A DNA stretch of 42,165 bases from a virus. The notes beneath the pieces were generated by a model. It saw nothing but the letters and a program-made list of their open reading frames with translations. It was not told where the DNA came from and did no database searches. Made by a program: the position numbers and the translations under genes. The stretch lies in IMG/VR virus record IMGVR_UViG_3300028042_000003, positions 1 through 42,165 of that record; one strand, given 5' to 3'. This document shows, piece by piece, positions 10,643 to 27,863 of this stretch. Each line of letters opens with the position of its first letter. Within the stretch, counting starts at the first letter, position 1.

Positions 10643-11458
10643 ATGTATCATTATACATACAACATAATAAATCTCCAAACAATGAAAAAATACATTGGGG
10701 TGAGGTCATCTGAGTTATCACCAGAGGATGATTTAGGTGTTTATTATTTTTCGAGCTCGGCTAATACTAATTTTATAAAGAGTCAGAAAGATACCCCAAG
10801 TGATTTTCATTATGATGTATTGGGTGTTTTTGATACAAGAAAAGAAGCAGCAAACCATGAAATTGAACTACACAATTTTTATAATGTTGGCTCAAATCCG
10901 GAGTTTATAAATCAATGTAAATCAATATCCACTGGGTATAGCACTTTGGGTACCAAACATACGAACCCAAATAAACCTGGAATAAATAACTCTAACGCTA
11001 AACAGAAGATAGTTTATTTGTGGGACACCAGCATTCTAAAATGTGATGGAAATATAACATCATTTTATAGAAATGTAAACTCAAACGCAATAATAAAAAT
11101 AGAGGATTACAAAAACCAAAAATATCATTCTTTATATAAAAACGAAATAATAAAAATTTATGATTATATTCCAAATCATACATTCTTGAAAAAGACACAT
11201 AATGTGATAATAACACCCAACAATGGAACCTTTTATTTTTGTGGAAATATAGGCTCATTCAAAGACAAAATAAAAAATAGTAGATCAAAACAAATAAAAT
11301 ACAAAATTTCAAATGGCTATCCTATTCATTTGAACATTACTAACAAACCACCAGCAGTTTTTACTTTGAACGATGTAGAATGTCCTAAATGTGGAAAGAC
11401 TGGAACTTCCCGCCAAATGACCAGATATCATTTTGATAATTGTAAGAAATCTAAATGA
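10643..11458 (+). mobile_element. GIY-YIG (Seg-like) homing endonuclease inserted in nrdA
   Basis: YHYTY..N....KKYIGVRS, YFSSS, EA..HE; C-terminal CPKC..MTRYHFDNC. Confidence 0.8.
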
Positions 11459-11613
11459 TTACTCAACAAGAGATGGAACTCATAGAAACTATTGCGGATT
11501 TCAAAGAGCGAATAACGAAAACAAGCGGTGTTGATGAAGAGTGGTATCAAGAGAAGATAGACGAGTTAGAAGACCTACTCGAGATAATAAAAGAAAATAA
11601 AGGAACATTATGA
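11455..11613 (+). CDS. 52-aa acidic helical ORF between the endonuclease and nrdA-b
   Basis: Read manually (MITQQEMELIETIADF...KGTL); ATGA overlaps at both ends. Confidence 0.55.
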   Translation: MITQQEMELIETIADFKERITKTSGVDEEWYQEKIDELEDLLEIIKENKGTL

Positions 11614-12620
11614 TAACAAATTTATACGAAATAGTAGACAAAAACGAACCAGAAGAAGAGGGGTATTACTACTTTGACGAATCTTTTGGAATAAACAATT
11701 CACCTATGGCATCAGCAGAAGTTGGGTGCTGTATCCTAGCAGCGATGAACCACGGAAAAGTAACAGACGAAAGAGTACCGGTTGTATCAGAATATCTTGT
11801 ACGTTTCTTAGATAATATGATTGATTACATGGATTACTCACATGAAGAAATTGAACGTCCAGCTAAAATGAGAAGAACCCTTGGGATTGGTGACTCAGAT
11901 GTATTCCATTACCTAGCTAAAAATAAAAAATTCTACAACACCCAAGAAGGTCGCGAATTTATGCACGCAAGAAAAGAGCTTATGAGCTTCCATCTCCATA
12001 GAGCGAGTATTCAATTAGCAGAAGACTTTGGTGCTTGTGAACTTATAGCAGACACTAAGTACCAAGATGGTTGGTTCCCTATTGATAGCTACAACAAAAA
12101 TACAGATGAGCTTATATCACAACCACTTAGACAAGATTGGGAAAGCCTAAGAAAGCGTCAAATACAGTTTGGACAACGTCACAGTACTCTCCAAGCAAAT
12201 GCGCCCGTTGCTAATTCAGCTAAACCAAGTGGATCAACAAGTGGAATAGAACCACCACGTTTCTTAGCTACGGTAAAAGAAGATAAAACAATAGTTACTC
12301 AGTTGGTTCCAGGCTATCAAGCACTAAAACACCAGTACACCACAGCATGGTCACCTGAATTCAATAACATAGATTACTTCAAATTTGTATCATTGATTCA
12401 AAAATTTGTAGACCAAAGTATGTCTACTAACCAGTACACTGAACTAGCAAGATACGAGAACCAAAAGGTTCCATTGAGTGTCCTAGAAGATGAGTTTTTT
12501 ACTGCTAAACGATACGGTCTCAAAACGATGTATTACCAAAACACAAGAGCAGCAGACCTAAAAGATGGTCTTGAAGAAGAAGCATCAGATGCTTGTGGGT
12601 CGGGAGGGTGTAGCATATGA
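11610..12620 (+). CDS. nrdA: RNR alpha subunit, C-terminal fragment (NrdA-b)
   Basis: Own AAAGGA SD + ATG; EVGCCIL (C462 equivalent), RTLGIG, SGIEP, GLKTMYY, terminal CGSGGC. Confidence 0.93.
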   Translation: MITNLYEIVDKNEPEEEGYYYFDESFGINNSPMASAEVGCCILAAMNHGKVTDERVPVVSEYLVRFLDNMIDYMDYSHEEIERPAKMRRTLGIGDSDVFHYLAKNKKFYNTQEGREFMHARKELMSFHLHRASIQLAEDFGACELIADTKYQDGWFPIDSYNKNTDELISQPLRQDWESLRKRQIQFGQRHSTLQANAPVANSAKPSGSTSGIEPPRFLATVKEDKTIVTQLVPGYQALKHQYTTAWSPEFNNIDYFKFVSLIQKFVDQSMSTNQYTELARYENQKVPLSVLEDEFFTAKRYGLKTMYYQNTRAADLKDGLEEEASDACGSGGCSI

Positions 12621-13848: not shown

Positions 13849-14174
13849 TAGGAACATTTCTTTTTGGGTTGACAATAGGAGTTATACTAGGTGGGGTTAT
13901 TGGATTAGTATATAGCAGAACAGCTACACTTACAGATTTGATATCTAGAGTAGATAAAATCAAGTTTGATATGGAGGTTTTGTCAACAGAGCGAAACTTT
14001 TATAAAGGTGAATTAGAAAAACAAAAAAAGTGGGATGATTTTTTACCTACCCAATATCCTCAACACCAACCTCCAGAGCTATTCAACGCTAATCTCAAAA
14101 AGGACGAGAAGGGCAAATTCAACCCAGATGACGTTCCTGGAGTATTTGATGGAGTATTTGGAGAGATAAAATGA
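13845..14174 (+). CDS. Membrane-anchored coiled-coil protein
   Basis: N-terminal Gly-rich TM helix. Confidence 0.6.
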   Translation: MIGTFLFGLTIGVILGGVIGLVYSRTATLTDLISRVDKIKFDMEVLSTERNFYKGELEKQKKWDDFLPTQYPQHQPPELFNANLKKDEKGKFNPDDVPGVFDGVFGEIK

Positions 14175-14359
14175 GTTTCAACACAACCACAAGCACATAT
14201 ACGGATAGATACACAATCGGGACGACCGTCTCGTCGCTAAACCAATCTAAATCTGAAATTATCATAGAAGCAGATGGAGAGCGTATTGTGATTACTGCCA
14301 GAATGCTAAAGAGAATGATTGAACTAATAAAAAGAGAATTTCCAGAGGATGAATTATGA
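14171..14359 (+). CDS. Hypothetical protein
   Basis: ATGA coupling; ends EFPEDEL. Confidence 0.55.
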   Translation: MSFNTTTSTYTDRYTIGTTVSSLNQSKSEIIIEADGERIVITARMLKRMIELIKREFPEDEL

Positions 14360-14550
14360 TTATAAACGACCTTACTATGTTATCCACTCAACTTGAGGTT
14401 TGGAAGGCATACTTGAAGCTAGATGTTACCCCTGATAAATATCAGTTGCAAATGGAACTGAATACTTTATTACTAAAAAATATAACCCCAGATACTCTAT
14501 TAGAGCTCCGGGAATTTATAGCTAGGCTTGAGAAGCTTGTTCAGCCGTAA
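14356..14550 (+). CDS. Hypothetical protein
   Basis: ATGA coupling; last gene of the early operon. Confidence 0.5.
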   Translation: MIINDLTMLSTQLEVWKAYLKLDVTPDKYQLQMELNTLLLKNITPDTLLELREFIARLEKLVQP

Positions 14551-14899
14551 ACAACTCTTGCTCTAAAACATCAAGATCTTTTCGCCATTGTGGTTTTGTG
14601 TTGTTTGTAGTTGCGAAATCAGCTAATAACGCATCAATCCATGGACAACCATAAGAGATAGTCTCAGCGGATATAGTCACATTAGTCATGTTAGCTTCTT
14701 TGAAGTTAGCATACGTTAGAATAGCACCACTAAAGTTTACATTTTCTAGGTTCGCATTTCTAAAATTTGAACCCGTTAGGTCTTTACCAGTAAAGTCTTG
14801 TCCTTGGAGATCTTGTCCTTGGAAGTCTTGGTACTGTGTGTCTGCTGTATTTTCTGATTGGATTCTTTGAATCTCTGTTTGTAATTCTTGTATTGTCAT
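14522..14899 (-). CDS. Pentapeptide-repeat protein
   Basis: QDFQG QDLQG QDFTG KDLTG SNFRN ANLEN VNFSG AILTY ANFKE. Confidence 0.85.
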   Translation of the reverse strand: MTIQELQTEIQRIQSENTADTQYQDFQGQDLQGQDFTGKDLTGSNFRNANLENVNFSGAILTYANFKEANMTNVTISAETISYGCPWIDALLADFATTNNTKPQWRKDLDVLEQELFTAEQASQA

Positions 14900-14909
14900 T
14901 TAGTTTCCT

Positions 14910-16316
14910 TTATTTGATTGCATCGTATGTTAGCTCTGTCATTTTATTGCCAGTTGCGCTCATTTTTACCTTTGTTACAATTGATCCAGATGGGGTAATT
15001 GGTTTATCTGTGAATGTTCTATATGTTTTTAGAGCTGTAGACGTCGTAAAATAAGTATCCATCAACTTCGTAAAAGGATTACCATTGAACTCTACAGCTT
15101 CATCTACCCTATATACTCTTGATGGGACTTCACCATTTGTTATTGATGTGGTGTCCATAGTGTATGGTCCAGTTCCAGTCACACCACTAGCTACAACCTC
15201 ATGAACCGAGTTATCATCTTTTACTATAACTAGGTTATCTCCATTTTTTATAAGTTCTGTTGTTTTGAGATTATTAGCTGTTGAGTTTGCACTTATATTT
15301 TTGAACTCAAACTTTCCTGCTATATTTTTAACCTTGCTTATCACATCGTTTGTTGAATGCAACATTTCAATTTCAGCGATAGATAAGTTTGTACTTTCAG
15401 TTGCCGATGTGTTTATTTCATACTTTTCATAAACCGTTGTGTTTTCAAGAAAGAACCAAGAAAACTCACCGTCTATGTATGTTTGATTAGTTACTGATAA
15501 CAAAACATCATTTTGAGCACCTTTGTGTCCTACTATTGTAAAATCTTTTGGAGCCTCATCGATATATTCATGTCTTGGTTTGATTTTTATGACATTCACC
15601 ACTTTTGGTTTAGGTAGAGTATATCCTATTCGCTCTGGGAATAATGCGTTTGGATTTGCTACCCATGCAGTATGTCCTGCTCCATCAAAAGCATGAAACG
15701 CTGATGAACCATATTCACTATCAGCATATGCAAGTCCAAGTGGTTGATTATTATGTGTCATTTTAGGCACAAAATTTATAGGTTTTGATAGTCCTGCACC
15801 AAAAAATCTGATGTTTGATATTTTTAGTATCGGTTCACCGTCTGGTACCAATGTTGTTACGTTAATTCTGAAGTACTTGTAAGAAGCTGGTCTTAGATTA
15901 TATGTGTTAGTGCCATTGTCTACAAAAACCTCTTCCGTAAAAGTTTCAACTGTTGTCCATGAAGAACCATCGCTACTACCATCTAATGTAAAATTATATG
16001 GCGCTCTTCTATGGTTCGGGAGAGTTATTCTGAATCCAGTTATTGTTTGTGTAGAAGGGTATTCTATTTTTATCCACTTTGGTAAAGTTCCGCCATTTGA
16101 GTGTGTCATCCAAGGTGTTGTTCCTTCTTCGAATGCTCTCCATGCTTCAAATCTATTATCCCACACCTCACTGGCAGTAATAATGTTTGGTGTTGTTATT
16201 GCTGTTTGATATGGTAGTTCTGTAGCAAAATGTGGTGTAGCTTTACTAACCGCTACCCCGTCTGTACCAGTACACACTAATGCGTTACTGGAACTCTCTA
16301 CATTATTTAAACTCAT
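14910..16316 (-). CDS. Fibre/receptor-binding protein with two discoidin (F5/8 type C)-like domains
   Basis: Two AWRAF/AFHAFDG..W...APxxF.(L/I).G..Y.Y units. Confidence 0.7.
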   Translation of the reverse strand: MSLNNVESSSNALVCTGTDGVAVSKATPHFATELPYQTAITTPNIITASEVWDNRFEAWRAFEEGTTPWMTHSNGGTLPKWIKIEYPSTQTITGFRITLPNHRRAPYNFTLDGSSDGSSWTTVETFTEEVFVDNGTNTYNLRPASYKYFRINVTTLVPDGEPILKISNIRFFGAGLSKPINFVPKMTHNNQPLGLAYADSEYGSSAFHAFDGAGHTAWVANPNALFPERIGYTLPKPKVVNVIKIKPRHEYIDEAPKDFTIVGHKGAQNDVLLSVTNQTYIDGEFSWFFLENTTVYEKYEINTSATESTNLSIAEIEMLHSTNDVISKVKNIAGKFEFKNISANSTANNLKTTELIKNGDNLVIVKDDNSVHEVVASGVTGTGPYTMDTTSITNGEVPSRVYRVDEAVEFNGNPFTKLMDTYFTTSTALKTYRTFTDKPITPSGSIVTKVKMSATGNKMTELTYDAIK

Positions 16317-19300
16317 TATATAAACTCCGTTGCTATATTTGTATTATCATAGGTTACTGTTTGGTCTAATGTTTCGGTGACATCTTTTTCCCAAACTTTA
16401 TTGTTACCTAAATATATTTTATTTATAATCATCGTACCTAAATACGCATCTTTTATCTCTTTATCGCCTAGACTTGGAGTAACCGGGGGAGTCCATGTAC
16501 AACAATCTTCACCATCTGGTGTGTTGTTTACCCAGTTTATACCTGGTGTTGCTGTTATCTGTGCTCTTTCTGTTGCATTAGGTCTACATAGATCCTCGCT
16601 TCTCCCAAACGTATGATTAGACGATGTAGATGATGTTGTGTCTATTCCTTTTATACATTTTAGTGTATCACAACTATACCAAGCGTAATCAAAGTTAGTT
16701 CCTTTACTGGTATCTAATAAAGGGAAAGAAGTCAGCTTAGAACAGTGCTCCCAAGCGTAATCAAAGTTAGTTCCTTTACTGGTATCTAATAAAGGGAAAG
16801 AAGTCAGCTTAGAACAGCGCCCCCAAGTGTAACCAAAGTTAGTTCCTTTAGAAACATCAAGTAAAGGGAAAGAGGTCAACGATGAACAACCATACCAAGT
16901 GTAACCAAAGTTAGTTCCTTTAGAAACATCAAGTAAAGGGAAAGAAGATAATCCAAAACAAGTTCTCCAAGCACTATCAAAGTTAGTTCCTTCTGATGTG
17001 TCTATCATAGGAAAAGAGGTCAACGCAGAACAAGCACTCCAAGCATGACTAAAGTCAGCAACTAAAGAAAAGGCTGTAGCAGATGCTATAAACTGAACCA
17101 ATCGTTGAGATGACTCGAACGTATGAGACAACGAGGTCAATTCTTCTGTTATGATTTCTATTTTAGAGACATAGGCTTTGTTAGCACCCATCTTGAATGC
17201 AGTAATACCATCAGTTGATTCAAGTTGATACGTTCCATCTCCGTTATCAGTCACGGTTATTGAACCACCTTGAACATCAGAAACTCCAGGTAAAGCAGTT
17301 GCTGTTACTTTTATCTCGAATTTATTAGGTGCTACATAAGTACAACAATCTTCACCATCTGGAACATCAGAAACCCAAGCTATGCCTGGGGTTGCTTCTA
17401 TTGCTGTTTGTTCTGTTGCATTAGGTCTACATAAATTATCTGGAAATATGTAAGAGGTACCAGTAGCAGAAGAAGTATTTACCCCTTTTATACATTTCAG
17501 GTTATTAGAGCCAGTCCATGTGAATGTAAAATCGGTTCCTTTTGAAGTGTCAAGTGAAGGAAAAGATGTCAACCCTGAACATTCTCTCCAAGTTCCTTGA
17601 AAATTAGTTCCGTTAGAAACGTCAATAGCAGGAAAAGAAGTCAACTTAGAACAACTATCCCAAGTATTTCTGAAGTTGGTTCCGTTTGAAGTATCTAATA
17701 AAGGAAAAGATGTCAACTTAGAACATTGTCTCCAAGTTCCTTGAAAATGAGTTCCGTTAGAAACGTCTAATAAAGGAAAAGATGTCAACCCTGAACATTC
17801 TCTCCAAGTCCCAGTAAAATTAGTTCCGTTTGAAGTATCTAATAAAAGAAATGATGTCAACCCTGAACATCTAAACCAAGCATAAGCAAAGGTACTAACA
17901 CTTGAAGTATCTAATAAAGGAAAAGATGTCAATGCATAACACTGTCTCCATGTCTCACGAAGGGTTGTAGCACTGCTGATGTCTATCAAAGGAAAAGAGG
18001 ATAATAATCTACAATCTGTCCAAGCATAGTCGAAATTAGTTCCGTTGCTGGTATCTATCAAAGGGAAAGATGATAACTGTCTACAACCATTCCAAGCATA
18101 CCTAAAATTGGTTCCTTTTGAAGTATCTATCAAAGGAAAAGATGTCAACCCTGAACAATAATTCCAAGCTGAACTAAAATTAGTTCCACTTGAAGTATCT
18201 ATCATAGGAAAACCGACTAACCCTGAACAAGTACTCCAAGCATTACTAAAATCAGTAACTAATCCAAACGCTGTAGCTGGTGCTATGAAATCAGTCATCC
18301 CTGAACAATTTATGAACGTGCCATGCAGCGATGTTAGCTCTTCTGTTATGATTTCTATTTTAGAGACATAGGCTTTGTTAGCACCCATCGCGAAGTGGGT
18401 AATGCCATCAGTTGATTCAAGTTGATACGTTCCATCTCCGTTATCGGTTACTGATATAGAACCACCTTGTACATCAGAAACTCCAGGTAAAGAGAGTGCT
18501 GTTACTTTTATCTCGAATTTATTAACCGGTGGAGTCCACGTACAACAATCTTCACCATCTGGAACATCAGAAACCCAAGCTATACCTGGAGTTGCTGCTA
18601 TTGCTGTTTGTTCTGTTGCATTAGGTCTACATAGAGCTGGGGTGTCGAAAAACATATTGGAAGTGCTTTGAGCTGATGATGTATCTATACCTTTTATACA
18701 TTTTAGAGCCGAACAACTGCGCCAAACATTTTGAAAATTAACCCCACTTGAGGTATCTAATGAAGGAAAAGAGTGTAACTTGGAACAATTATTCCAAGTG
18801 CTCTCAAAAATAATACCTTTACTGGTATCAATCAAAGGAAAAGCTGTCAATTCCTCACAACCATGCCAAGTTTTTATAAAATCAGTACCTGAACTGGTAT
18901 CTAATAAAGGAAAAGAGGTCAACGCTGAACAATTCTCCCAAGCATAACCAAAGTTAGTTCCACTTGAAGTATCTAATAAAGGGAAAGAAGTCAACCCAGA
19001 ACAACCATTCCAAGTTAAGCTAAAATTAGTAGCTTTGTTGGTATCTAATAAAGGGAAAGATGTCAACCCTGAACAATGATTCCAAGCCCATCTGAAATCG
19101 GTTCCTTTTGATGTATCAATTATAGGAAATGATGTCAATGATGAACATCCAGACCAAGCACTACCAAAATTAGTAACTAAACCAAATGCTGTAGGTCCAG
19201 CTATAAACTCAGACATTGTGCTACAACCAGTAAATGCATGACTCAATGATGTCAGCTCTTCTGTTATAATTTCTATTTTAGTGATTTTATCTTTGTTAGC

Positions 19301-19441
19301 ATCCATCTTGAAGGCAGTAATAACATCATTTGATGTAAATTGGTATGTTCCATCTGTGTTATCGGTTATGGTTATAGCGCCGCCTTGAACATCTTTTACC
19401 GACGGTAACGCCGTCGAGGTTACTTTTATTTCAAAATTCAT
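16316..19441 (-). CDS. BspA/DUF285-like LRR adhesin with three capped modules
   Basis: 24-aa repeat FPLLDTSxGTNFxx(A/T)WxxCSxLTS in 7, 11 and 6 copies; each module has an N-cap and a Cys-rich C-cap. Confidence 0.85.
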   Translation of the reverse strand: MNFEIKVTSTALPSVKDVQGGAITITDNTDGTYQFTSNDVITAFKMDANKDKITKIEIITEELTSLSHAFTGCSTMSEFIAGPTAFGLVTNFGSAWSGCSSLTSFPIIDTSKGTDFRWAWNHCSGLTSFPLLDTNKATNFSLTWNGCSGLTSFPLLDTSSGTNFGYAWENCSALTSFPLLDTSSGTDFIKTWHGCEELTAFPLIDTSKGIIFESTWNNCSKLHSFPSLDTSSGVNFQNVWRSCSALKCIKGIDTSSAQSTSNMFFDTPALCRPNATEQTAIAATPGIAWVSDVPDGEDCCTWTPPVNKFEIKVTALSLPGVSDVQGGSISVTDNGDGTYQLESTDGITHFAMGANKAYVSKIEIITEELTSLHGTFINCSGMTDFIAPATAFGLVTDFSNAWSTCSGLVGFPMIDTSSGTNFSSAWNYCSGLTSFPLIDTSKGTNFRYAWNGCRQLSSFPLIDTSNGTNFDYAWTDCRLLSSFPLIDISSATTLRETWRQCYALTSFPLLDTSSVSTFAYAWFRCSGLTSFLLLDTSNGTNFTGTWRECSGLTSFPLLDVSNGTHFQGTWRQCSKLTSFPLLDTSNGTNFRNTWDSCSKLTSFPAIDVSNGTNFQGTWRECSGLTSFPSLDTSKGTDFTFTWTGSNNLKCIKGVNTSSATGTSYIFPDNLCRPNATEQTAIEATPGIAWVSDVPDGEDCCTYVAPNKFEIKVTATALPGVSDVQGGSITVTDNGDGTYQLESTDGITAFKMGANKAYVSKIEIITEELTSLSHTFESSQRLVQFIASATAFSLVADFSHAWSACSALTSFPMIDTSEGTNFDSAWRTCFGLSSFPLLDVSKGTNFGYTWYGCSSLTSFPLLDVSKGTNFGYTWGRCSKLTSFPLLDTSKGTNFDYAWEHCSKLTSFPLLDTSKGTNFDYAWYSCDTLKCIKGIDTTSSTSSNHTFGRSEDLCRPNATERAQITATPGINWVNNTPDGEDCCTWTPPVTPSLGDKEIKDAYLGTMIINKIYLGNNKVWEKDVTETLDQTVTYDNTNIATEFI
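16679..16945. repeat. 72-bp-period tandem repeats within the LRR gene
   Basis: 67 bp identical at 16679-16745 and 16751-16817; 51 bp identical starting at 16823 and 16895. Confidence 0.9.
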
Positions 19442-19461
19442 ATTTATTCCTTATTATGGGT

Positions 19462-20361
19462 TTATGCTGGTACTATTATGTATAATTTACTTGCGTCTTT
19501 AGTTGCTATTGCATCGTAATCTGCTTGAGTGATAGAAACTATATTAGTTACTTGTATTTCATTTCCAACTGGAGTTGATTTTACAACATCAGTTAGGTCA
19601 GCTGCTGGAACAAAAACTTGGAGATCGTTAGGCGAAATAATAGCTATGTTTCCTGGATCTGATGAAACTGTAGGTGCTGTTGCTGATACTATTCTTTCCC
19701 AGTCATTTTCTTCCCAGTTAGCATTTGTAGCTTTATCAGCTTTTGCTATATAAATGTTTGTAACAAATTGACCTTCCATACCACCCTGAAGTGATTTAGC
19801 GGTAACTATATCACCAATTACATATGATTTACTTTCTGCGAATTCTTGGTGAGGCGCATCTGAACTTGAAGCGTCAATAAGATCTTTTAGAGTCTTACCT
19901 TGCTTAGCTGAAAGAGCGTTATCTTTTGATGTTGAAGTTAGATTATCTTCTACTGTCACTTCTGTTGGAGTGGTCCATACTGCGTTGCCATCTGTGGCAT
20001 CTTGTTTGGTTAGTGTTTGACCCGTAGTTCCACCTTTTGGTATACCACCTGATATTTCATTCCACTTAGCCGCATCGAAATCTCCGGTGGTATCGTCTAT
20101 ACAAATCCATGTAGTCATTGTTCCTGGAGCTTCTTTATGTCCTACAACGTCACCGTTCACATAATTTACTGTTTTGTCATAAATCACACCACCACGTTCT
20201 GGTGTACTTGATCCAGTTCCGGTTAGTTCTTTAGTAACTTTCGCTATGTCACCTACAAATAATTTACCATCCGCAAGGTTTACTGCCAGTTCTCCTGGTT
20301 CTAGGTCGCCAGTTGCTGGGATTTTGCCAGCAACATTTGATTTTTTTATCGAAATTTTCAT
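19462..20361 (-). CDS. Tail fibre protein
   Basis: PGELAVNLADGKLFVGD head, two CBM5/12-like repeats, DNLTSTS..ALSAKQGK repeat, C-terminal TQADYDAI..KD..LYII. Confidence 0.75.
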   Translation of the reverse strand: MKISIKKSNVAGKIPATGDLEPGELAVNLADGKLFVGDIAKVTKELTGTGSSTPERGGVIYDKTVNYVNGDVVGHKEAPGTMTTWICIDDTTGDFDAAKWNEISGGIPKGGTTGQTLTKQDATDGNAVWTTPTEVTVEDNLTSTSKDNALSAKQGKTLKDLIDASSSDAPHQEFAESKSYVIGDIVTAKSLQGGMEGQFVTNIYIAKADKATNANWEENDWERIVSATAPTVSSDPGNIAIISPNDLQVFVPAADLTDVVKSTPVGNEIQVTNIVSITQADYDAIATKDASKLYIIVPA

Positions 20362-20398
20362 ATTTATGATTCCTTGATGCTTATATAAGCTTTTTATT

Positions 20399-20406
20399 TA
20401 TTTATA
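20399..20406 (-). promoter_or_regulatory. T4-type late promoter
   Basis: TATTTATA on + (TATAAATA on -). Confidence 0.7.
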
Positions 20407-21333
20407 TTACCACTTACTCCAATGGAAAATGCCCCAACCACAACAATCGCTGGTTTCTGGAGCATCTGAGATCCACTTGATTCCCGGAGTTGCTTCTATT
20501 GCTGTTCTTTCTGTTGCGTTAGGTCTGCATATATTAGTACTAGCACCAAACATCAAATGTACGTCTGTGGCTGAAGTTGTATCTATACCTTTTATACATA
20601 TTAATGCTGAACAACCATGCCAAGCTAAAGCAAAATTAGTTACTTTACTGGAATCTAATGCAGGAAAAGAGGTTATCGACCCACAATTATTCCAAGCATA
20701 CGTAAAGCTTGTTGCTGAACTGGTGTCTATCATAGGGAACTGGGTCAACTTGGAACAAGATTGCCAAGCATAACCGAAGTTAGTTCCTTTACTGGTATCC
20801 AATAAAGGAAAAGATGTCAACTGTGAACAAGCACCCCAAGCACCACTAAAATTAGTTCCACTTGAAGTGTCTAATAAAGGAAATGATGTCAACGCAGAAC
20901 ACCTCCACCAAGCATAACTAAAATTAGTTCCACTTGAAGTGTCTAATAAAGGGAATGATGTCAATGCAGAACATTTATTCCAAGCATACCCAAAAGTAGT
21001 TCCTTTACTGGTATTTATCATAGGGAAAGAGGTTAATGATGAACAACCATCCCAAGCTCTTTGGAAATTGGTTACATCCTTGAACGCATCGGTGGGTACT
21101 ATAAGATTAGTTAGCTGACCCAAACCTCTGAACGTTTCATACATATTAGTCAACTCTTCTGATATGATTTCTATTTCGGTTATGAGGTGTTTGTTAGTAG
21201 TAAATATAAATCGACCAACTGGTGTGGTCGATTTTACTGTCCAGTCTGGTGCAGAACCAGTCCAAGTTACCGACCCAGGATCGTAAATTTGTATTTGGGG
21301 TTGTACTTGACACGTTACTTTCATATGAAGCAT
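20407..21333 (-). CDS. Single-module LRR adhesin, paralogue of 16316-19441
   Basis: 7 x 24-aa repeats plus CIKGIDT..CRPNATE..DCC cap. Confidence 0.85.
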   Translation of the reverse strand: MLHMKVTCQVQPQIQIYDPGSVTWTGSAPDWTVKSTTPVGRFIFTTNKHLITEIEIISEELTNMYETFRGLGQLTNLIVPTDAFKDVTNFQRAWDGCSSLTSFPMINTSKGTTFGYAWNKCSALTSFPLLDTSSGTNFSYAWWRCSALTSFPLLDTSSGTNFSGAWGACSQLTSFPLLDTSKGTNFGYAWQSCSKLTQFPMIDTSSATSFTYAWNNCGSITSFPALDSSKVTNFALAWHGCSALICIKGIDTTSATDVHLMFGASTNICRPNATERTAIEATPGIKWISDAPETSDCCGWGIFHWSKW

Positions 21334-21343
21334 AATTTATCCT

Positions 21344-21739
21344 TTAGTAATTTCCTAGATCTATAATATCTGTTGGTATCCATTTAGTGCCGTTGAAGCT
21401 TAGAACATCATTTGTTGATGGGGGAGTATTTACAGTATCCACATCAGTGAGTTCGGATATTTGATGTGTTTGTGGGGCTTGGTTTATCCATTTGCCGTTT
21501 TGGAACTCCAAGTATTGACCATTAGCTAGAAGGTTAAAATCTGTATCTATTAGCCCGTGTAGTGTATCTGAACCACCTGAACCACCTGAACTAGATGTAA
21601 GTTCTAAACCACCTAAAGTAGATCCATCACCTACCCATAAACTGTTGAGTGTTTGGTCCCAGATTAGTTCACCGATTGCTGGTGTAAATGCTAAACGGTC
21701 ATTTTTTGGACCACGTTTTATTTGTATTTGTATTGACAT
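21344..21739 (-). CDS. Short fibre adaptor with Mtd_N-like head
   Basis: IQIKRG...GELIWD...VGDG; L.DVD..VL.FNGTKW repeats. Confidence 0.65.
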   Translation of the reverse strand: MSIQIQIKRGPKNDRLAFTPAIGELIWDQTLNSLWVGDGSTLGGLELTSSSGGSGGSDTLHGLIDTDFNLLANGQYLEFQNGKWINQAPQTHQISELTDVDTVNTPPSTNDVLSFNGTKWIPTDIIDLGNY

Positions 21740-21751
21740 ATTTTTCCTTTG

Positions 21752-22666
21752 TTATGTTGTTAGTGCTGGTGGTGCTGATGGTAAAACCCCTGCATCCATT
21801 ACCGTTAGATCTGGTTTATTTTTGATAAACGCATCATTGTTTGTGTCAGTTTCTGTCCAATCACTTTGAATATTTGCTTCTCCTGCAAGTGCATCAATTT
21901 CTATTTTTAGTGATTTCCCCATTTCTGCTGATAGTAAATCTGTATTTCCACCAGATGTTAGATCATTTATTACTAAAGGTCTATTTTTTATTGCTGTATT
22001 TCCAGTTCCATCCCAGTCAACTTCAATAGGTTGTATCTCGATTTTAATAAGATCTGTTGGACCAGATGGGTTTTCGTTTACCGCAACAAATGTATTTCCA
22101 GCTAGTTGATCTTTTACTAAGATTATATCACCTGGCTGTACATTAGGTAACGCGTAAAGTTCAGTTAGTGTTTGAACTTGAAGACCTTGGCTTTTCGCTT
22201 CTTTTGGTAAAACTGAAGCGTCTACTTTACCTGATGTTAGACCTGCTACAGTAATATTTATGTCCGTCTTAGGTATTAGTAAATCTGTTTCGTCGTCTTG
22301 ATATTTTTTAGTAACGATATCACCATCTACTTGTGGCGTGTAATTCACCATTGGAGTAGTTCCATCGTTCTTTAGGAATTTTTGAGAATCTGTAGTATAA
22401 GATTCAAAGTTACCTTGTGCTTTTTGAAGAGCAACATGAACACTATCACCAGTGACAATATCACCTGATGCTCCACTAAAACTTGATAGCTTTAGTGTCT
22501 TAGGTGTTCTTGTAAGCTTTATACCACCTTGAGTTATTCCATCAAAATAGAATATCTCTTTTGTATCTGTGTTATAAGCCAACTCACCTTCTTTTCCAAT
22601 ATACGCAGTTATGCTTTGGGTACCCCCTCTCTTTATGAGAAGGTCCGCTTTGTATGGCTCAGACAT
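21752..22666 (-). CDS. Tail fibre protein with Mtd_N-like head
   Basis: LIKRG...EGELAYNTDT..FDG; LSAEMGKSL; QSDW..IKNKP. Confidence 0.65.
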   Translation of the reverse strand: MSEPYKADLLIKRGGTQSITAYIGKEGELAYNTDTKEIFYFDGITQGGIKLTRTPKTLKLSSFSGASGDIVTGDSVHVALQKAQGNFESYTTDSQKFLKNDGTTPMVNYTPQVDGDIVTKKYQDDETDLLIPKTDINITVAGLTSGKVDASVLPKEAKSQGLQVQTLTELYALPNVQPGDIILVKDQLAGNTFVAVNENPSGPTDLIKIEIQPIEVDWDGTGNTAIKNRPLVINDLTSGGNTDLLSAEMGKSLKIEIDALAGEANIQSDWTETDTNNDAFIKNKPDLTVMDAGVLPSAPPALTT

Positions 22667-24609
22667 TAGTTTTGTCCTCCTGGAGGTGTACCACTACCTG
22701 TTGGTGGTGGCATACTACCTGCTGGCAAGTTCCCAGCATCTATAGTATCTGGTTTATTTTGGATATACGAATCTGAATTTACATCAGTTTGTGTCCAATC
22801 ACTTTGCACTAGTGGCTCAAATGCCAACCAAGATAATTCATCTATTGATGGATCTGTTTGACTTGTAACATCCACTTTAGCTAAATAAATTTTAGAATCA
22901 AACGATACAATATCACCTAATCTATAAATTGTTCCACCAAACCAAGCTTTACCAGCTGTTTCAGGTGGTATAATTACTGGAGTAGTTTCCCATTTATGAG
23001 AAATGTTATTATATATCAAAGAGTCACCATCAACTGGTGAACCATCAACATCTGCTATCATTTCAAGTAAAGTTGTATTTTGCTTTAGAAGTTTTTCAAT
23101 AAGAGTAACAGAAGAAATATTTTCCCAATTTGATCCATTTCTTATTAGTAAATCATCATCCGCTAATGAAGTATAATTTACATCAAGGTCTAGTAACTCA
23201 GTTGGTATTTTTTTGAATTTCCAAGTACCAACACCACCACCTGCTGCAGCGTCCCAAGAAATAGTTTCACCCGTTGACATAGTATCACTTACGTCTTTTA
23301 GATCTTGTAGTCTAATTTGTTCAGCTACAGTAGCTAAAGTCGCATTGACCCATTTATTACCAGTTGCTCCAGCTTGGTATGTAATTACATCACCAATTAG
23401 TGGAGTGGTAACATCAACATCGTTTAGGCTGTCTAGGTTGTCATCTTCGTATTCTACTTTTGTACCTGACGAATTTGTAACAAGTTTTTTACCAGCATCT
23501 AGTGATGAAGGTGTGTCTGTTAGTGATAAAAATGTTGGTGCTGGGGAAGTTACCCATTTACCTGAAGTCGTGTCCCATGTAATGTAGTCACCTTTTAGTG
23601 TACCACTTGAGATAATTGTATTTTCATCTACTAAAGTCCAGTTCGTTGTATCTTGTGTTGGATCTAAGTTTGTTGACGTATTTCCAATAGCTTTATTACT
23701 TATATAAAGTTTACCACTAAATGAAACTATAGCTCCAGTTTGGTAGTTTGCTGTAGAGTTCCATAAAACCCCACCTACTTCTCCAGCTACTGTTGGTGAT
23801 GCTTTGTAACTCCATAAGTCGTCAGTCGCATCTGCTGGTGTATTGTGATCACCTTGCCAAACAAATTTGTCTCCGTTCATTACTGTTATTCCAGTAATAG
23901 GTCCTGATGTCATTGTATAACCAACGGCTGTTAGACCATCAATAGTCCAAGTAGCACCTGGTCTTCCAATAAATGAAGCTGGAGTTCCTACTGTAGAAAC
24001 ATCTGGATATTCTGATCCACCTGCTGTACCACCCGCACTTGGAGTATGAGTAGCTACTTGATATTCTGTGTTTTCTAAAGATTGCCATTCAGCTAATGAT
24101 GTAACTGGGTTTGCGTTTGAAGAATTTGTCAACGCAATGAAAACCATTACATTTCCTTGACCCGCTTCATGAGAAACAATATCACCTGGTTTATAGTTTT
24201 TATTAGCAGTCCATTTACCACCTCTAAATTCTAAATCTTCTGCAAAGTCTTTCCATGCATTGGCATCAAATGCTCCGGTTGTATCTGTTTTAGCTACAAA
24301 AGTCTCAAACGATGTACCAGTTGGGTTCAGTAAAACTACATCACCTTTTTGGTATTTTTTCTCTGGGTTATATAATTTACCAGCAGTATCAGATTGTACA
24401 ATATCTTTATATTCACCAACCACGCCAGATAATAGTTCCTCGAGTGTAGAAGTAGGTGTTATAGATGCTTTACTAATAAGTTGAACAAATCCAACTTTAT
24501 TTGTAGCTGAATTGTCAGCGTCCACTACTTGAATAATACCATTTACTGGTACTTGATCCAAGCCAGTCTCAGCTAGGTTTTTGAAAGTGTGTATCGAATT
24601 ACGAAACAT
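22666..24609 (-). CDS. Fibre protein with four CBM5/12-like repeats
   Basis: GG.W....Y..GDIV repeats; L.DV linker repeats; QSDW..IQNKP. Confidence 0.7.
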   Translation of the reverse strand: MFRNSIHTFKNLAETGLDQVPVNGIIQVVDADNSATNKVGFVQLISKASITPTSTLEELLSGVVGEYKDIVQSDTAGKLYNPEKKYQKGDVVLLNPTGTSFETFVAKTDTTGAFDANAWKDFAEDLEFRGGKWTANKNYKPGDIVSHEAGQGNVMVFIALTNSSNANPVTSLAEWQSLENTEYQVATHTPSAGGTAGGSEYPDVSTVGTPASFIGRPGATWTIDGLTAVGYTMTSGPITGITVMNGDKFVWQGDHNTPADATDDLWSYKASPTVAGEVGGVLWNSTANYQTGAIVSFSGKLYISNKAIGNTSTNLDPTQDTTNWTLVDENTIISSGTLKGDYITWDTTSGKWVTSPAPTFLSLTDTPSSLDAGKKLVTNSSGTKVEYEDDNLDSLNDVDVTTPLIGDVITYQAGATGNKWVNATLATVAEQIRLQDLKDVSDTMSTGETISWDAAAGGGVGTWKFKKIPTELLDLDVNYTSLADDDLLIRNGSNWENISSVTLIEKLLKQNTTLLEMIADVDGSPVDGDSLIYNNISHKWETTPVIIPPETAGKAWFGGTIYRLGDIVSFDSKIYLAKVDVTSQTDPSIDELSWLAFEPLVQSDWTQTDVNSDSYIQNKPDTIDAGNLPAGSMPPPTGSGTPPGGQN

Positions 24610-24630
24610 AGTTATCCTTTTATTTTATTG

Positions 24631-24649
24631 GGTAGCTTATAAAGCTACC
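24631..24649 (-). terminator. Hairpin over the stop codon of the 1065-aa gene
   Basis: GGTAGCTT-ATA-AAGCTACC 8-bp stem; no U-tract. Confidence 0.35.
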
Positions 24650-27600
24650 GCATCAATGTGTACCCAGTCGCCTGCTTGTGGAATACTATTGAATGTTATT
24701 TTTGAACCGGTTGAGGTAACTGCTAGGCTGTATTGGTAAGTTCTTATATCATTTTTTCTTTGTAATGAACCATTCACGAACACGTTCAGTGACTGTATTT
24801 GTTTGCCTGGAATGTCAATAATTTTAGTTATTCCATCCATATCAACATCTTCTTTGTGAATAAATGTTGGCACATATTTTTTATCTGTGTTATTCCATGT
24901 TAGTATTTGATTATCTACAGTACCTGGAACAACTGAACTTCTAAACCATTCAGTAGGGTTAGCAGTAGGAACAATACCTTTTTGATTACTAAGACTTATA
25001 TAAGTAACGTAATTACCGTTTTCATTTACTGAAACGATATCACCTTGTTTGTATGCTTTAGCTACATCAAATAGTCTACCACCTCTTTCGATAGTATCCA
25101 TTGGTCTCCAAATTGGGTTAGACCCATCTGCTTTTGGTTCATCACTTGCTCCAATATCATCTGCCAAACAAGTATATAATCTCCACTCTGAGTCTACTGT
25201 ATCAAAGAATGAAACTACATCACCTTGAGCATAGTCGAAAGTAGCTGTCCATAAAACACCACCTACTTCGTTTATGCTTGTATCAAGCCAATTCAAGTCT
25301 GGACCTGTTATTTTAGGTTCTTTGTTTGTGTTCTGAGTAAGTGCGATATACACTTTTCTGTTTGCTGAAACTACATCACCTGGGTAATATTCAAATGTAT
25401 TATCATAAACTTGTCCACCTCTGTTTGTACAAGCCCATAAGTTAGCATTTATTTCAAGTCCTGGGTTTTTGTTTGTGTTGTCAGTCAACGCTACATAAAC
25501 ACGCTTACCAACGGTAACTGTATCGCCCGTTTTATAATCATAAAAAGTACTCCAAGACAATCCAGCTTTTTCTGGGAATGTTTGTTGAATCCATTTTGAC
25601 GCATCCCACGCACCTGCTTGTACACCTGCTGATGGTGCCATAAATAAGTGTTGTGCTCCATTTTTGTGTCCATAAACAGTATCAAATTCTTTGTAATCTT
25701 TTGAAGGGTTGAACTTCATGTTTACATTGAAACTAATGTCAATTTCTTTCCACTCTGGGCTAACATTTGGTTGAGCTTGGTTTGTTGCTATATCTGTAAG
25801 AGCAATAAACGACTGTATTTGAACCTCACCAGTTGAGAAAGGCATCATAGTAATGATATCACCTTTTTTGTATGTCAAACTTGCTGAAAACAAACGTCCA
25901 GCTTTTTCATATGGTGTAACTAGTTCAAATTTAGAAACGTCCCAAGGACCCATGTAAGACCCACCTGGTCCACCTTGTGAAATCCATAGTTGTCCTTGGT
26001 AATAAACTATATCACCTTGTTTGTATTCTATGGTTGTGCTAAAACTAATAGCACTTGAATCTCTAATATTTAGTAGCTTCCATGAAGTAGAAATATCAGG
26101 GTTTTGGTTTGCTGCTGTTCCTAACGCTTTTTGTACCGCTGTTGTACAAGAATAGAAGTCATTACTAAATGAAACAATAGTTCCAGCAGTATAACTATCT
26201 AGAGCGTGCCATGCGATACCACCCTTTTCAGGAGTAGATGCGTTATACCAGTTTCCAGTTTGATTTACCGCAGCTGGATCATCACCTTTTAGGTTATCAC
26301 CTAAAGCAATAAATGTTTCTGAACCAACAGATACAATATCACCTCTAGTATATGTCTTTGTGTCGTCATATGAAACACCACCGTTTTCTTGTGCTCTGAA
26401 TATTTTCCAATCTGGTTTGATACCTGCTGGAACTTGTGCTGATGGGTTTGTTGCTGTATGAGTAGTCAATGCTACATAAATTTCTCCATTTTGTGATACA
26501 ATATCACCTGGACGATAATTTACACTTGAAACCCATAATACTCCACCTCTTGGGTTGTAAGTAATTGCTTGCCATGCGTGTGCTGAACCTGGATGACCTG
26601 GATCTTCACCTTTTAGTGTGTTTTGTTTAGCAATGAAAATGTCATAACCTACAGAAACAATATCACCTCTTTGGTAAGTAAGGTTATTATCATATCCTTT
26701 ACCACCATTAGCTGATAAATTTAGTGCTTGCCATGCTGTTCCAGTTCCAGGTTCTTCCGCATCTGTTGCTGATAAACAAACATAAATTACTTGATCCGCA
26801 TTTACTCTAAGTGTGGCTACATCACCTGCTGAGTACGCTTTTCCTAAGATCCAAGCTCTACCACCTAGTTCTGAGTCTGAAGATGCTTCCCAAAATAATG
26901 AAGTTACTGCTGGAGTATTTCCTTGTTGTCCTGATTTAGCTGTAAATAAAGTTCCTTTGTAAGAAACAATATCACCTTTGCTATATAAAACACCAGCTGA
27001 AAACGCTCTACCACCTAGTTCTAAACTATTTACGTCAAACCAATCGTTTGAAGTAGAAGTAGGAATAGAATTTAGGTTGTTTGTTTTTGCTATGTAAAGA
27101 GAACCACTATTTGAAACTACATCACCTTGTGAATAGTTAGATGTTTGGTTCCATTGAGTTCCACCTTGTTCAAGAACTTCTAAAGTTGAAGCAGGTTCGT
27201 TTACCCATTTTGTGCCATTATAAACTAAAACATCTTTATCAGCAGCTGCAGTAAGTTCAACATCACTAAGTTCTGTTAAACTTGGCGCACCGATACTTTT
27301 CCATGTATTGTCTGTTCCTGGAGTTGTGGGTGCTGGAGAAACGGCAACATAAATGTTTGAATTTAGAGAAACAATGTCGCCTTTTTTATAAGTAGTTCCA
27401 GTTTTATATTCAAGACCACCTCTTTCTTCAATTACAGCGATAAATTTATTTACCCATCTGTTTTGAGCTCCATCATAAACTAAATGGTCTCCGTTACCTG
27501 GGTTTAGAACCGAAGTATCAGATAAAGAAACTAAATCACTAGCTACTGACTTCCAAGATCTAACTCCACTCGCTGTTGAAGTTAGTACAAAACCAGTTTG

Positions 27601-27855: not shown

Positions 27856-27863
27856 TATTTATA
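27856..27863 (-). promoter_or_regulatory. T4-type late promoter
   Basis: TATAAATA on the - strand. Confidence 0.75.

What the first reader, a model, noticed from the sequence alone, without database searches (positions are those of the whole stretch)
16316..21333. VLR-like capped LRR adhesin array with hypervariable positions in a constant 24-aa scaffold
Seen: four modules (three in one gene, one in a second), each N-cap + n x 24-aa repeat + Cys-rich C-cap, with n = 7, 11, 6 and 7. The scaffold is nearly invariant while positions F-x-x-(A/T)-W-x-x-C vary in almost every repeat (WSGC, WNHC, WENC, WRQC, WFRC, WWRC, WGRC, WEHC, WYSC...). The C-terminal LGDKEIKDAYLG..KIYLG..VW motif, next to a fibre ending TQADYDAI..KD..LYII, suggests tail-tip attachment. 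Inference: a combinatorial receptor-binding library diversified by repeat shuffling, architecturally analogous to lamprey VLRs, and needing no DGR.
Basis: partly seen in the sequence, partly recalled or inferred. Interest (0 to 1): 0.75.

Follow-up and report, generated by a model that had tools for sequence, protein, structure and literature searches.

The report
Phage LRR adhesins docked on fibre
Two late genes in the tail-fibre cluster of an uncultured marine T4-like phage encode leucine-rich-repeat proteins of a widespread, already described bacterial and viral family (DUF285/PARCEL, BspA-type), with a fast-evolving surface stripe, and the larger one is predicted to dock on the tip of the neighbouring fibre; it is an evolved adhesin, not a lamprey-style shuffling library.

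Summary
ORFs 16316-19441 (1041 aa) and 20407-21333 (308 aa), both on the minus strand, contain four capped modules with 7, 11, 6 and 7 repeats of exactly 24 aa. Repeat positions 2, 3, 6, 7 and 10 are hypervariable.

The fold is an LRR solenoid, closest to BspA/TpLRR structures. Relatives hit Pfam DUF285 and LRR_5 on the same repeats. The family is very large (16,226 representative clusters) and common in phages; this scan already holds 79 notes on it in at least 69 genomes. So the kind is known.

Silent sites in the scaffold are strongly diverged (dS about 0.86), so the repeats are old. The variable codons evolve faster than silent sites (ratio about 1.7 here, about 2.8 in an independent phage). 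That fits diversifying selection plus occasional duplication and gene conversion.

There are no donor cassettes and no reverse transcriptase on the 125-kb contig, so a VLR-like combinatorial mechanism is not supported.

The most distinctive result is the docking. The conserved C-terminal tail of the 1041-aa protein co-folds with the trimeric tip of the upstream fibre (ipSAE 0.86, best control 0.01). The same fibre-tip/tail gene pair recurs in another phage.

Verdict: a new variant of a known kind, of moderate interest.

The parts
16316..19441 (-). Gene A: 1041-aa protein with three capped LRR modules in tandem plus a C-terminal docking tail
   Evidence: ORF; repeat parsing; PHROG 34853/22899 hits; AF2 model of module 3 with mean pLDDT 82.5
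18665..19168 (-). Module A1 LRR array, 7 x 24 aa (residues 92-259)
17459..18250 (-). Module A2 LRR array, 11 x 24 aa (residues 398-661)
16622..17053 (-). Module A3 LRR array, 6 x 24 aa (residues 797-940). It includes the recent duplicate pair A3.4/A3.5.
16391..16483 (-). C-terminal tail of A, residues 987-1017 (VTPSLGDKEIKDAYLGTMIINKIYLGNNKVW): the predicted docking segment on the fibre tip
   Evidence: complex prediction interface. The tail is disordered when folded alone, pLDDT below 50. The motif is conserved in L002, P0133, P0144 and L003c.
19462..20361 (-). 299-aa tail fibre (Mtd_N-like N-terminus, Phage_fiber_rpt, Phage_tail_C tip): the predicted carrier of protein A
   Evidence: Pfam PF22337 at 3.1e-8 and PF24243 at 7.9e-8; complex model
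19468..19551 (-). Fibre tip, residues 271-298 (TQADYDAIATKDASKLYIIV): the predicted interface in all three copies
20407..21333 (-). Gene B: 308-aa single-module LRR protein (N-cap, 7 repeats at 20563-21066, Cys-bearing C-cap, no docking tail)
21344..21739 (-). 131-aa mini-fibre (Mtd_N-like N-terminus) directly upstream of B
   Evidence: Pfam PF18454 at 9.5e-4, below the cut-off; PHROG tail-fibre hits
20399..20406 (-). T4-type late-promoter motif TATAAATA upstream of the fibre299-A transcription unit
   Evidence: 11 matches in the window against 5.1 expected. That it works as a promoter is inferred from T4 biology.
27856..27863 (-). TATAAATA motif upstream of the 1065-aa fibre gene, the likely start of the unit that ends with B
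14910..16316 (-). 468-aa discoidin (F5/8 type C) tail protein. Its start codon overlaps the stop of A.
   Evidence: Pfam PF22633/PF00754 at 1e-16; PHROG 17517 tail protein at 1e-30

Best explanation
Genes A and B encode virion-borne adhesins of the DUF285/PARCEL (BspA/TpLRR-class) leucine-rich-repeat family, made late together with the tail fibres.

Each module has three parts: a small six-stranded beta domain, 6-11 turns of a 24-residue solenoid, and a Cys-bearing cap. The buried scaffold (F1, A/T4, W5, C8, L11, F14, P15, L16/17, D18, T19, S20, G22, T23) is under purifying selection. The exposed positions 2, 3, 6, 7 and 10 (and 24 in relatives) form one stripe along the solenoid, are rich in G, S, R, Y and N, and are under diversifying selection. 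This stripe is the likely ligand-binding surface for a host envelope component.

Repeat number and content change slowly, by ordinary unequal recombination, duplication and gene conversion. No dedicated diversifying machinery is involved.

Protein A is predicted to attach as one copy to the C-terminal tip of the trimeric 299-aa fibre encoded just upstream. Its C-terminal tail would lay successive (x)YLG beta segments against the LYII strand of the fibre subunits, so that three different LRR modules point outward, in the manner of the gp38 tip adhesin of T2-type phages.

Shown here: the anatomy, the fold class, the family link, the selection pattern and the gene context. Model-supported only: the docking. 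Inferred: presence in the virion, receptor binding and the ligand.
For: Anatomy.

Fold: two AF2 models (pLDDT 80.4 and 82.5). Foldseek's top hits are 4fs7, 6mlx, 4h09 and 4gt6. VIA gives 4fs7 Z 16.6 and 6mlx Z 16.3, and 7crb Z 17.8 and 4fs7 Z 17.7.

Family: Pfam DUF285 (E 1e-15) lies directly on the 24-aa repeats of relative P0061, and LRR_5 hits other relatives. BFVD holds 64 viral matches, many named BspA-family LRR surface protein.

Tail association:
- The genes sit among fibre genes on one strand, with 10-45 nt gaps, behind TATAAATA motifs.
- In viral contig L003, three paralogues are interleaved with fibre genes.
- In a Klebsiella P2-like phage the same LRR is fused to baseplate protein gpI (Tail_P2_I E 3.6e-38 plus LRR_5/DUF285).
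- S-CBWM1 gp93 lies between two annotated fibre genes.

Selection: in the window, scaffold dS is 0.86 and scaffold dN/dS 0.24-0.28, while dN of the variable codons over scaffold dS is about 1.7. In the independent arrays of L003 the same ratio is about 2.8 for positions 2, 3, 6 and 7. The recent duplicates A3.4 and A3.5 differ at four sites, all non-synonymous, at positions 2, 4, 6 and 7, with no silent change.

Docking: ipSAE 0.86 in three runs against a best control of 0.01. The calibration mark was reached by 51 of 78 solved complexes and 2 of 108 mismatched pairs, but the job is unlike that calibration. The runs share at least 98% of their contacts, and partner pLDDT is at least 63. The interface is fibre 271-298 in all three copies with A 987-1017. 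Neither part has a sequence relative in the PDB. In L002, a different fibre ending AQADYDALATKEADKLYIIV is followed 10 nt later by a two-module LRR protein ending FLGDKQVKKMYLGSKEV.
Against: There is no virion proteomics, imaging or binding data for this uncultured phage, and the ligand is unknown.

The window proteins themselves get no Pfam or NCBIfam hit at E up to 0.01, so the family link runs through relatives and fold.

Protein B has no docking tail, and its attachment is unexplained.

I could not read model coordinates. Solvent exposure of the variable sites, and whether they lie on the concave or the convex side, are therefore inferred from sequence register and DSSP only.

The dN/dS figures come from paralogous repeats. 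The sites were chosen for being variable, the pairs are not independent, and the window values are close to saturation.

The complex job used three copies of a fragment without alignments, unlike the tool's calibration, and the trimeric state of the fibre is assumed.

DUF285 proteins also occur as non-virion proteins in bacteria and giant viruses.
Confidence: 0.6

Rival explanations
1. VLR-like combinatorial receptor library: the phage population continually reshuffles repeat cassettes, so individual virions carry different arrays, and receptor diversity is generated quickly without a DGR.
For: There are local signs of recombination. Identical or near-identical blocks occur between neighbouring repeats (A3.4/A3.5, B.2/B.3, and the shared 3' half of A3.2/A3.3). 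TRF finds periods of 144 and 216 nt. A 94-nt patch is 97% identical between the C-caps of modules A1 and A2. Repeat number differs between homologous modules of relatives, from 4 to 14.
Against: No silent or partial cassettes occur outside the two genes in 125 kb. Silent-site divergence between repeats is high (pS 0.51, dS about 0.86), and modules differ by 20-36% in their caps, so most of the array is old. There is no recombinase, deaminase or RT signal next to the locus. No near-identical relatives or reads were available to show polymorphism. The pattern of recombination seen is what any tandem coding repeat shows.
Confidence: 0.05
2. The proteins are not in the virion. They would be LRR effectors acting inside or on the infected cell, for example binding a host or defence protein or blocking superinfection, as proposed for DUF285 libraries in giant viruses and some bacteria.
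For: DUF285/BspA proteins are abundant in non-structural contexts, for example 13% of AaV genes (PMC7507832). B has no recognisable anchor. Neither protein has a signal peptide (by inspection of the sequences).
Against: The genes lie inside the late fibre operon. A's tail co-folds with the fibre tip. The same gene pair is conserved in L002. The family LRR is fused to baseplate gpI in a Klebsiella phage. Two DUF285 proteins were found in AaV particles by proteomics.
Confidence: 0.15
3. The LRR modules bind something other than the host receptor, such as marine particles, chitin or exopolymer. They would hold virions where hosts are dense, as in the Ig-domain 'adherence to mucus' idea, and would not decide host range.
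For: The same operon is full of carbohydrate-binding modules: CBM5/12 three times plus SH3 in the 1065-aa fibre, CBM5/12 in the 647-aa protein, and discoidin domains in the 468-aa protein. The closest cultured relatives by terminase are Vibrio phages, at 43%.
Against: Fast evolution at the exposed positions fits an arms race with a variable host surface better than binding to an invariant polymer. The position at a fibre tip is typical of receptor-binding proteins.
Confidence: 0.15

Closest known systems
PARCEL / DUF285 repeat proteins (Roske et al. 2010, PMC2996958; Pfam PF03382; TIGR02167 'bacterial surface protein 26-residue repeat')
   Same: Tandem repeats of about 25 residues with conserved hydrophobic, aromatic and Cys positions and highly variable hydrophilic positions. 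Variable repeat number. Abundant in marine metagenomes and spread by horizontal transfer. Pfam DUF285 hits the same 24-aa repeats in relatives.
   Different: The period is 24 rather than 25-26 residues, and the window proteins fall below Pfam detection. This subfamily has its own beta-domain N-cap and a CRPNATE...DCC C-cap that only a few proteins in the retrieved set carry. It is carried on a phage fibre rather than a cell membrane.
BspA/TpLRR-class LRR structures (4fs7, 4h09, 4gt6, 6mlx; Pfam LRR_5 PF13306)
   Same: They are the best structural matches to both models. The ...AF..C..L... motif is shared.
   Different: Sequence identity is only 14-18%. Those are cell-surface proteins of gut bacteria and a spirochaete, and none is a phage protein.
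LRR-bearing virion proteins of phages: Goslar DUF7941-LRR proteins (bioRxiv 10.64898/2026.04.21.720040), Klebsiella phage ST16-OXA48phi5.4 gpI-Big_2-LRR fusion, S-CBWM1 gp93
   Same: An LRR of the same family is placed at the periphery of the tail as a presumed host-recognition module.
   Different: In those phages the LRR is fused to its anchor domain. Here it is a separate polypeptide with three capped modules and a short docking tail.
gp38 tip adhesin of T2/S16-type phages (my own knowledge: Dunne et al. 2018, Structure)
   Same: A separate protein encoded just downstream of the distal fibre gene. One adhesin sits on a trimeric fibre tip. A constant scaffold carries hypervariable segments that set host range.
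   Different: The fold is unrelated (polyglycine sandwich against LRR). gp38 attaches by its N-terminal domain, whereas here the C-terminal tail is predicted to attach.
Lamprey and hagfish variable lymphocyte receptors
   Same: Capped LRR solenoid with 24-residue variable repeats and position-specific hypervariability. It is a generic LRR fold match (2o6q Z 14.0).
   Different: There are no LRRNT or LRRCT domains, no donor cassettes and no somatic assembly. The repeat class is different (BspA/TpLRR-like with a Cys ladder). Diversity here is germ-line and evolutionary.

Membership tests
DUF285 / PARCEL / BspA-type LRR | Tandem repeats of about 23-26 residues with a conserved hydrophobic/aromatic/Cys pattern and variable hydrophilic positions | tested here: met
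   31 repeats of exactly 24 aa; entropy profile
DUF285 / PARCEL / BspA-type LRR | Recognised by the family HMMs (PF03382, PF13306, TIGR02167) | tested here: inconclusive
   The window proteins get no hit at E up to 0.01 in Pfam or NCBIfam. Relatives at 50-60% identity hit PF03382 (P0061, E 1e-15, on the 24-aa repeats) and PF13306.
DUF285 / PARCEL / BspA-type LRR | LRR solenoid fold nearest to solved BspA/TpLRR proteins | tested here: met
   4fs7 Z 16.6-17.7, 6mlx Z 16.0-16.3, Foldseek top four hits
Variable lymphocyte receptors (VLR) | LRRNT and LRRCT cysteine-knot caps | tested here: not met
   No PF01462 or PF01463 hit. The N-cap is a Cys-free six-stranded beta domain. The C-cap has a different Cys pattern.
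Variable lymphocyte receptors (VLR) | Assembly from a bank of silent donor LRR cassettes | tested here: not met
   A six-frame motif scan of the 125-kb contig finds the repeat only inside the two ORFs. The contig is about 70% complete.
Variable lymphocyte receptors (VLR) | Hypervariable residues on the concave beta-sheet | tested here: inconclusive
   Model coordinates could not be read. DSSP places the regular beta-ladder at repeat position 24, and WxxCxxL aligns with L6xxC9xxL12 of RPP1. This suggests the strand-end and ascending-loop face, but it is not proven.
Diversity-generating retroelement targets | Reverse transcriptase plus a template repeat near the variable gene | tested here: not met
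   No RVT_1 match on the contig. Variation is spread over 31 repeats, and silent changes occur in the scaffold.
gp38-like fibre-tip adhesin (functional class) | Separate protein, encoded downstream of the fibre gene, that binds the trimeric fibre tip | tested here: inconclusive
   The gene order is met. The model supports binding with ipSAE 0.86 against a best control of 0.01, but it does not show it. The gp38 fold is absent.

The most novel reading that the evidence does not exclude
Tandem capped 24-residue LRR modules may be a general, antibody-like receptor-binding system of marine phages. A monomeric multi-module adhesin would clip onto a trimeric fibre tip through a three-segment YLG tail. 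Array length and paratope positions would turn over fast enough within populations, by duplication and gene conversion, to act as a standing host-range library.
Probability: 0.12. Interest if true: 0.7.

Novelty: new variant of a known kind. Interest (0 to 1): 0.42.

Why it matters
LRR adhesins of the DUF285/BspA type are very common in uncultured phages, yet almost nothing is known experimentally about how they sit on the particle or what they bind. This locus offers a concrete and cheap test: a 30-residue tail with (x)YLG segments predicted to clamp one adhesin onto a trimeric fibre tip carrying the Pfam Phage_tail_C motif. It also defines a paratope (repeat positions 2, 3, 6, 7 and 10) that shows signs of diversifying selection in two unrelated phages. 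If confirmed, this would help predict host-recognition genes in marine viromes and would give a modular scaffold for engineered binders. It does not reveal a new diversification mechanism.

Tried and rejected
- The look-up of sequencing runs listed no run, so read laying was not used and population polymorphism is untested.
- Scans of viral contigs with the 308-aa protein, the 299-aa fibre and the 468-aa discoidin protein found no close relative. Megablast of 14000-24000 against the phage records found nothing. The one metagenome scan gave only relatives at 56% identity or less. The closest homologue of A is 49% identical. Allelic comparison was therefore impossible.
- Model coordinates are not exposed to scripts, so no solvent-accessibility map could be made.
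- The ESM Atlas search with the N-cap gave only sub-threshold leads of 0.84 or less, and the N-cap fold was not searched on its own.
- I considered a DGR because L003's variable codons mostly end in T. I rejected it: T-ending codons dominate the scaffold too, there is no RT, and the variable sites are spread over dozens of repeats.
- A tblastn survey of 78 family loci with this phage's fibre proteins found fibre similarity in only 5. This reflects fibre divergence and is not informative about context.
- The terminator-like hits inside the genes are repeats within the C-cap coding sequence, not convincing terminators.

Full report
**Setting.** The window is the first 42 kb of a 125,228-bp IMG/VR virus record that is linear and about 70% complete by CheckV. 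PHROG hits identify a T4-like myovirus: tail sheath, tube, gp3-like sheath stabiliser, neck protein, large terminase, and a ribonucleotide reductase interrupted by homing endonucleases. The nearest cultured phages by terminase are 191-kb Vibrio phages, at 43% identity. From 27834 down to 14522 on the minus strand lies one tightly packed run of genes:
- a 1065-aa fibre with three CBM5/12 modules and an SH3 domain
- a 647-aa protein with CBM5/12
- a 304-aa and a 131-aa fibre-like protein with Mtd_N-type N-termini
- gene B (308 aa)
- a 299-aa fibre (Phage_fiber_rpt and Phage_tail_C)
- gene A (1041 aa)
- a 468-aa discoidin protein whose start overlaps A's stop
- a pentapeptide-repeat protein

The T4 late-promoter motif TATAAATA stands upstream of the 1065-aa gene, upstream of the 299-aa fibre gene, and inside the 3' end of A. 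It occurs 11 times in the window against 5.1 expected.

**Observation.** Anchoring on F..[AT]W..C gives repeat starts exactly 24 residues apart: 7, 11 and 6 in A and 7 in B. At the DNA level this appears as 72-nt tandem arrays. Across the 27 core repeats, W5, C8 and F14 never vary, and F1, L11, P15, D18 and S20 vary once. Positions 2, 3, 6, 7 and 10 carry 7-12 residue types. The N-caps of A's three modules are 64-80% identical to one another and about 33% identical to B's. The C-caps are 54-71% identical.

**What it is.**
- Two AlphaFold2 models were made: B with 40 homologues (pLDDT 80.4) and module A3 with 10 capped-module relatives (pLDDT 82.5). Both give an LRR solenoid preceded by a confident six-stranded beta domain (pLDDT about 96). 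In the second model the C-cap is also confident, with one helix.
- Foldseek ranks the BspA-type proteins 4fs7, 4h09 and 4gt6 and the treponemal TpLRR 6mlx first.
- VIA-align against 48,161 chains gives 4fs7 Z 16.6 (rmsd 3.6 A, 211 residues aligned) and 6mlx Z 16.3. A hagfish VLR appears at rank 12 with Z 14.0, among many other LRR proteins.
- Pfam and NCBIfam find nothing in the window proteins. In relatives at 50-60% identity, however, Pfam DUF285 (P0061, E 1e-15) and LRR_5 hit the same 24-residue repeats.
- The family is very large: 16,226 representative clusters at E up to 1e-3 and 1,457 at 1e-30. [quoted passage not shown]
- Roske et al. 2010 (PMC2996958) already described this repeat class (PARCEL = DUF285 = TIGR02167). 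They reported conserved hydrophobic positions, highly variable hydrophilic positions, variable repeat number and great diversity in marine metagenomes.
- This scan itself holds 79 notes on DUF285/BspA repeats in phage tail genes, from at least 69 genomes.

The kind is therefore known.

**A particular subfamily.** The N-cap (F.IKVT...DGT.Q...IE.I.EELTSL) together with the C-cap (LKC...LCRPNA.E...PGI.W...DCC) is rare. Among 344 retrieved proteins, only B, P0133 and P0144 have the CRPNATE-type motif. Viral contigs L001, L002 and L003 carry the same architecture with 4 to 14 repeats per module, as one, two or three modules per protein. In L003, three paralogues with 90% identical N-caps are interleaved with fibre genes.

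**Are the variable positions special?**
- In the window, scaffold codons differ often at silent sites (pS 0.51, dS about 0.86), including switches between TCN and AGY serine codons. Most repeats are therefore old.
- Scaffold dN/dS is 0.24-0.28. For positions 2, 3, 6 and 7, dN divided by scaffold dS is about 1.7.
- In the independent arrays of L003 the scaffold is more uniform (dS about 0.35), and the same four positions give a ratio of about 2.8.
- The youngest pair, A3.4 and A3.5, differs at four nucleotides. All four are non-synonymous, at positions 2, 4, 6 and 7, with no silent change.
- Residues at positions 2, 3, 6 and 7 are mainly G, S, R, Y and N in the window, and S and Y (54% together) in L003. 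This composition is typical of binding surfaces (my own knowledge).
- Caveats: the repeats are paralogues, the sites were picked for being variable (less so for L003), the pairs are not independent, and the window values are near saturation.

The data fit diversifying selection on an old scaffold, with occasional duplication and gene conversion. Signs of the latter are TRF periods of 144 and 216 nt and a 94-nt patch that is 97% identical between two C-caps.

The five variable positions lie within nine consecutive residues of a 24-residue turn, so they must stack into one stripe. In both models DSSP finds a regular beta-bridge at position 24 of every repeat. The profile alignment to the RPP1 LRR matches C8-S9-x10-L11...F14-P15 to the C..L..LP of that class. 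Positions 2/3 and 6/7 would then sit at the end of the main strand and in the loop before the Cys ladder, which is the usual ligand side of LRR proteins. An alternative register modelled on TpLRR would put them on the opposite side. This point stays open.

**No programmed diversification.** A six-frame scan of the whole contig finds the repeat only in the two ORFs, so there is no bank of silent cassettes. There is no RVT_1 match. No near-identical relatives or reads could be obtained to test polymorphism. The VLR comparison therefore holds only as a loose analogy: a capped LRR with position-specific variability.

**Attachment.**
- The 299-aa fibre ends in the Pfam 'phage tail tip' motif (PF24243, E 7.9e-8).
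- Protein A ends in SLGDKEIKDAYLGTMIINKIYLGNNKVW..., which is disordered in the monomer model (pLDDT below 50).
- Related tails close the LRR proteins of L002 and P0144, follow module 2 of P0133, and occur in short form in L003c.
- In L002, an otherwise different, collagen-like fibre ending AQADYDALATKEADKLYIIV is followed 10 nt later by a two-module LRR gene ending FLGDKQVKKMYLGSKEV.
- Because of this conserved pair I ran one complex job: three copies of fibre residues 190-299 with A residues 960-1041. The score was 0.86, 0.85 and 0.86 in three runs, against a best control of 0.01.
- The calibration mark was reached by 51 of 78 solved complexes and 2 of 108 mismatched pairs. The job is unlike that calibration, so these counts hold only roughly. 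The runs share at least 98% of their contacts, and partner pLDDT is at least 63.
- The interface is fibre 271-298 in all three copies with A 987-1017. AYLG (999-1002) lies on residue 294 of copy 2, and IYLG (1009-1012) on residue 294 of copy 3.
- Neither part has a sequence relative among solved structures, so recall of a known complex is unlikely.

The model supports binding but does not show it. The trimeric state of the fibre is my assumption.

**Independent support for a tail location.** In Klebsiella phage ST16-OXA48phi5.4, the baseplate protein gpI (Tail_P2_I, E 3.6e-38) is extended by a Big_2 domain and an LRR_5/DUF285 array. That array is what B matches by tblastn. S-CBWM1 gp93, a PKD plus DUF285 protein annotated 'putative tail protein', lies between two annotated fibre genes. 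The 2026 Goslar preprint describes virion DUF7941 proteins with LRR ends and proposes them for host recognition. Two DUF285 proteins were detected in AaV particles.

**Verdict.** The family assignment (BspA/TpLRR-class, DUF285/PARCEL) is secure. An adhesin role on the fibre is likely but not shown. The lamprey-like combinatorial mechanism is not supported. What is new is the variant architecture: separate multi-module capped LRR adhesins with a conserved docking tail. Protein B, which lacks the tail, remains without a proposed anchor.

Noticed in passing
window 22666-27834 (-): The two large fibre proteins carry chitin-type carbohydrate-binding modules: CBM5/12 three times plus an SH3 domain in the 1065-aa protein, and CBM5/12 in the 647-aa protein. 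With the discoidin protein at 14910-16316, the operon is a collection of different adhesion domains. The closest cultured relatives are Vibrio phages.
   Followed up: partly
window 14522-14899 (-): The last gene of the fibre operon encodes a 125-aa pentapeptide-repeat protein (Pfam PF00805, E 3e-20). Its role is unknown.
   Followed up: no
window 17340-17433 and 18540-18633: A 94-nt stretch of the C-cap coding sequence is 97% identical between modules A2 and A1, although the caps overall are about 80% identical. This is a likely gene-conversion patch.
   Followed up: partly
L003 1613-10439: A 40-kb viral contig carries three single-module LRR paralogues (14, 14 and 11 repeats) with 90% identical N-caps, nearly uniform scaffold codons and S/Y-rich variable positions, interleaved with fibre genes. 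It is a cleaner case of the same pattern than the window.
   Followed up: partly
window 14910-16316 (-): The 468-aa discoidin tail protein ends in ...TELTYDAIK. This resembles the first half of the fibre-tip motif TQADYDAI but lacks the LYII strand.
   Followed up: no
window 39181-39873 (-) and 4323-5084, 10643-11458 (+): Several homing-endonuclease genes are present: one between the sheath and tube genes, and one splitting the large ribonucleotide reductase subunit into two ORFs (9212-10642 and 11610-12620).
   Followed up: no
L020: A third locus has a fibre ending AEYDAITTPDASTIYVITDA directly followed by an LRR gene. That LRR ends in the common ...GWTVTVTGGY cap instead of the YLG tail.
   Followed up: no
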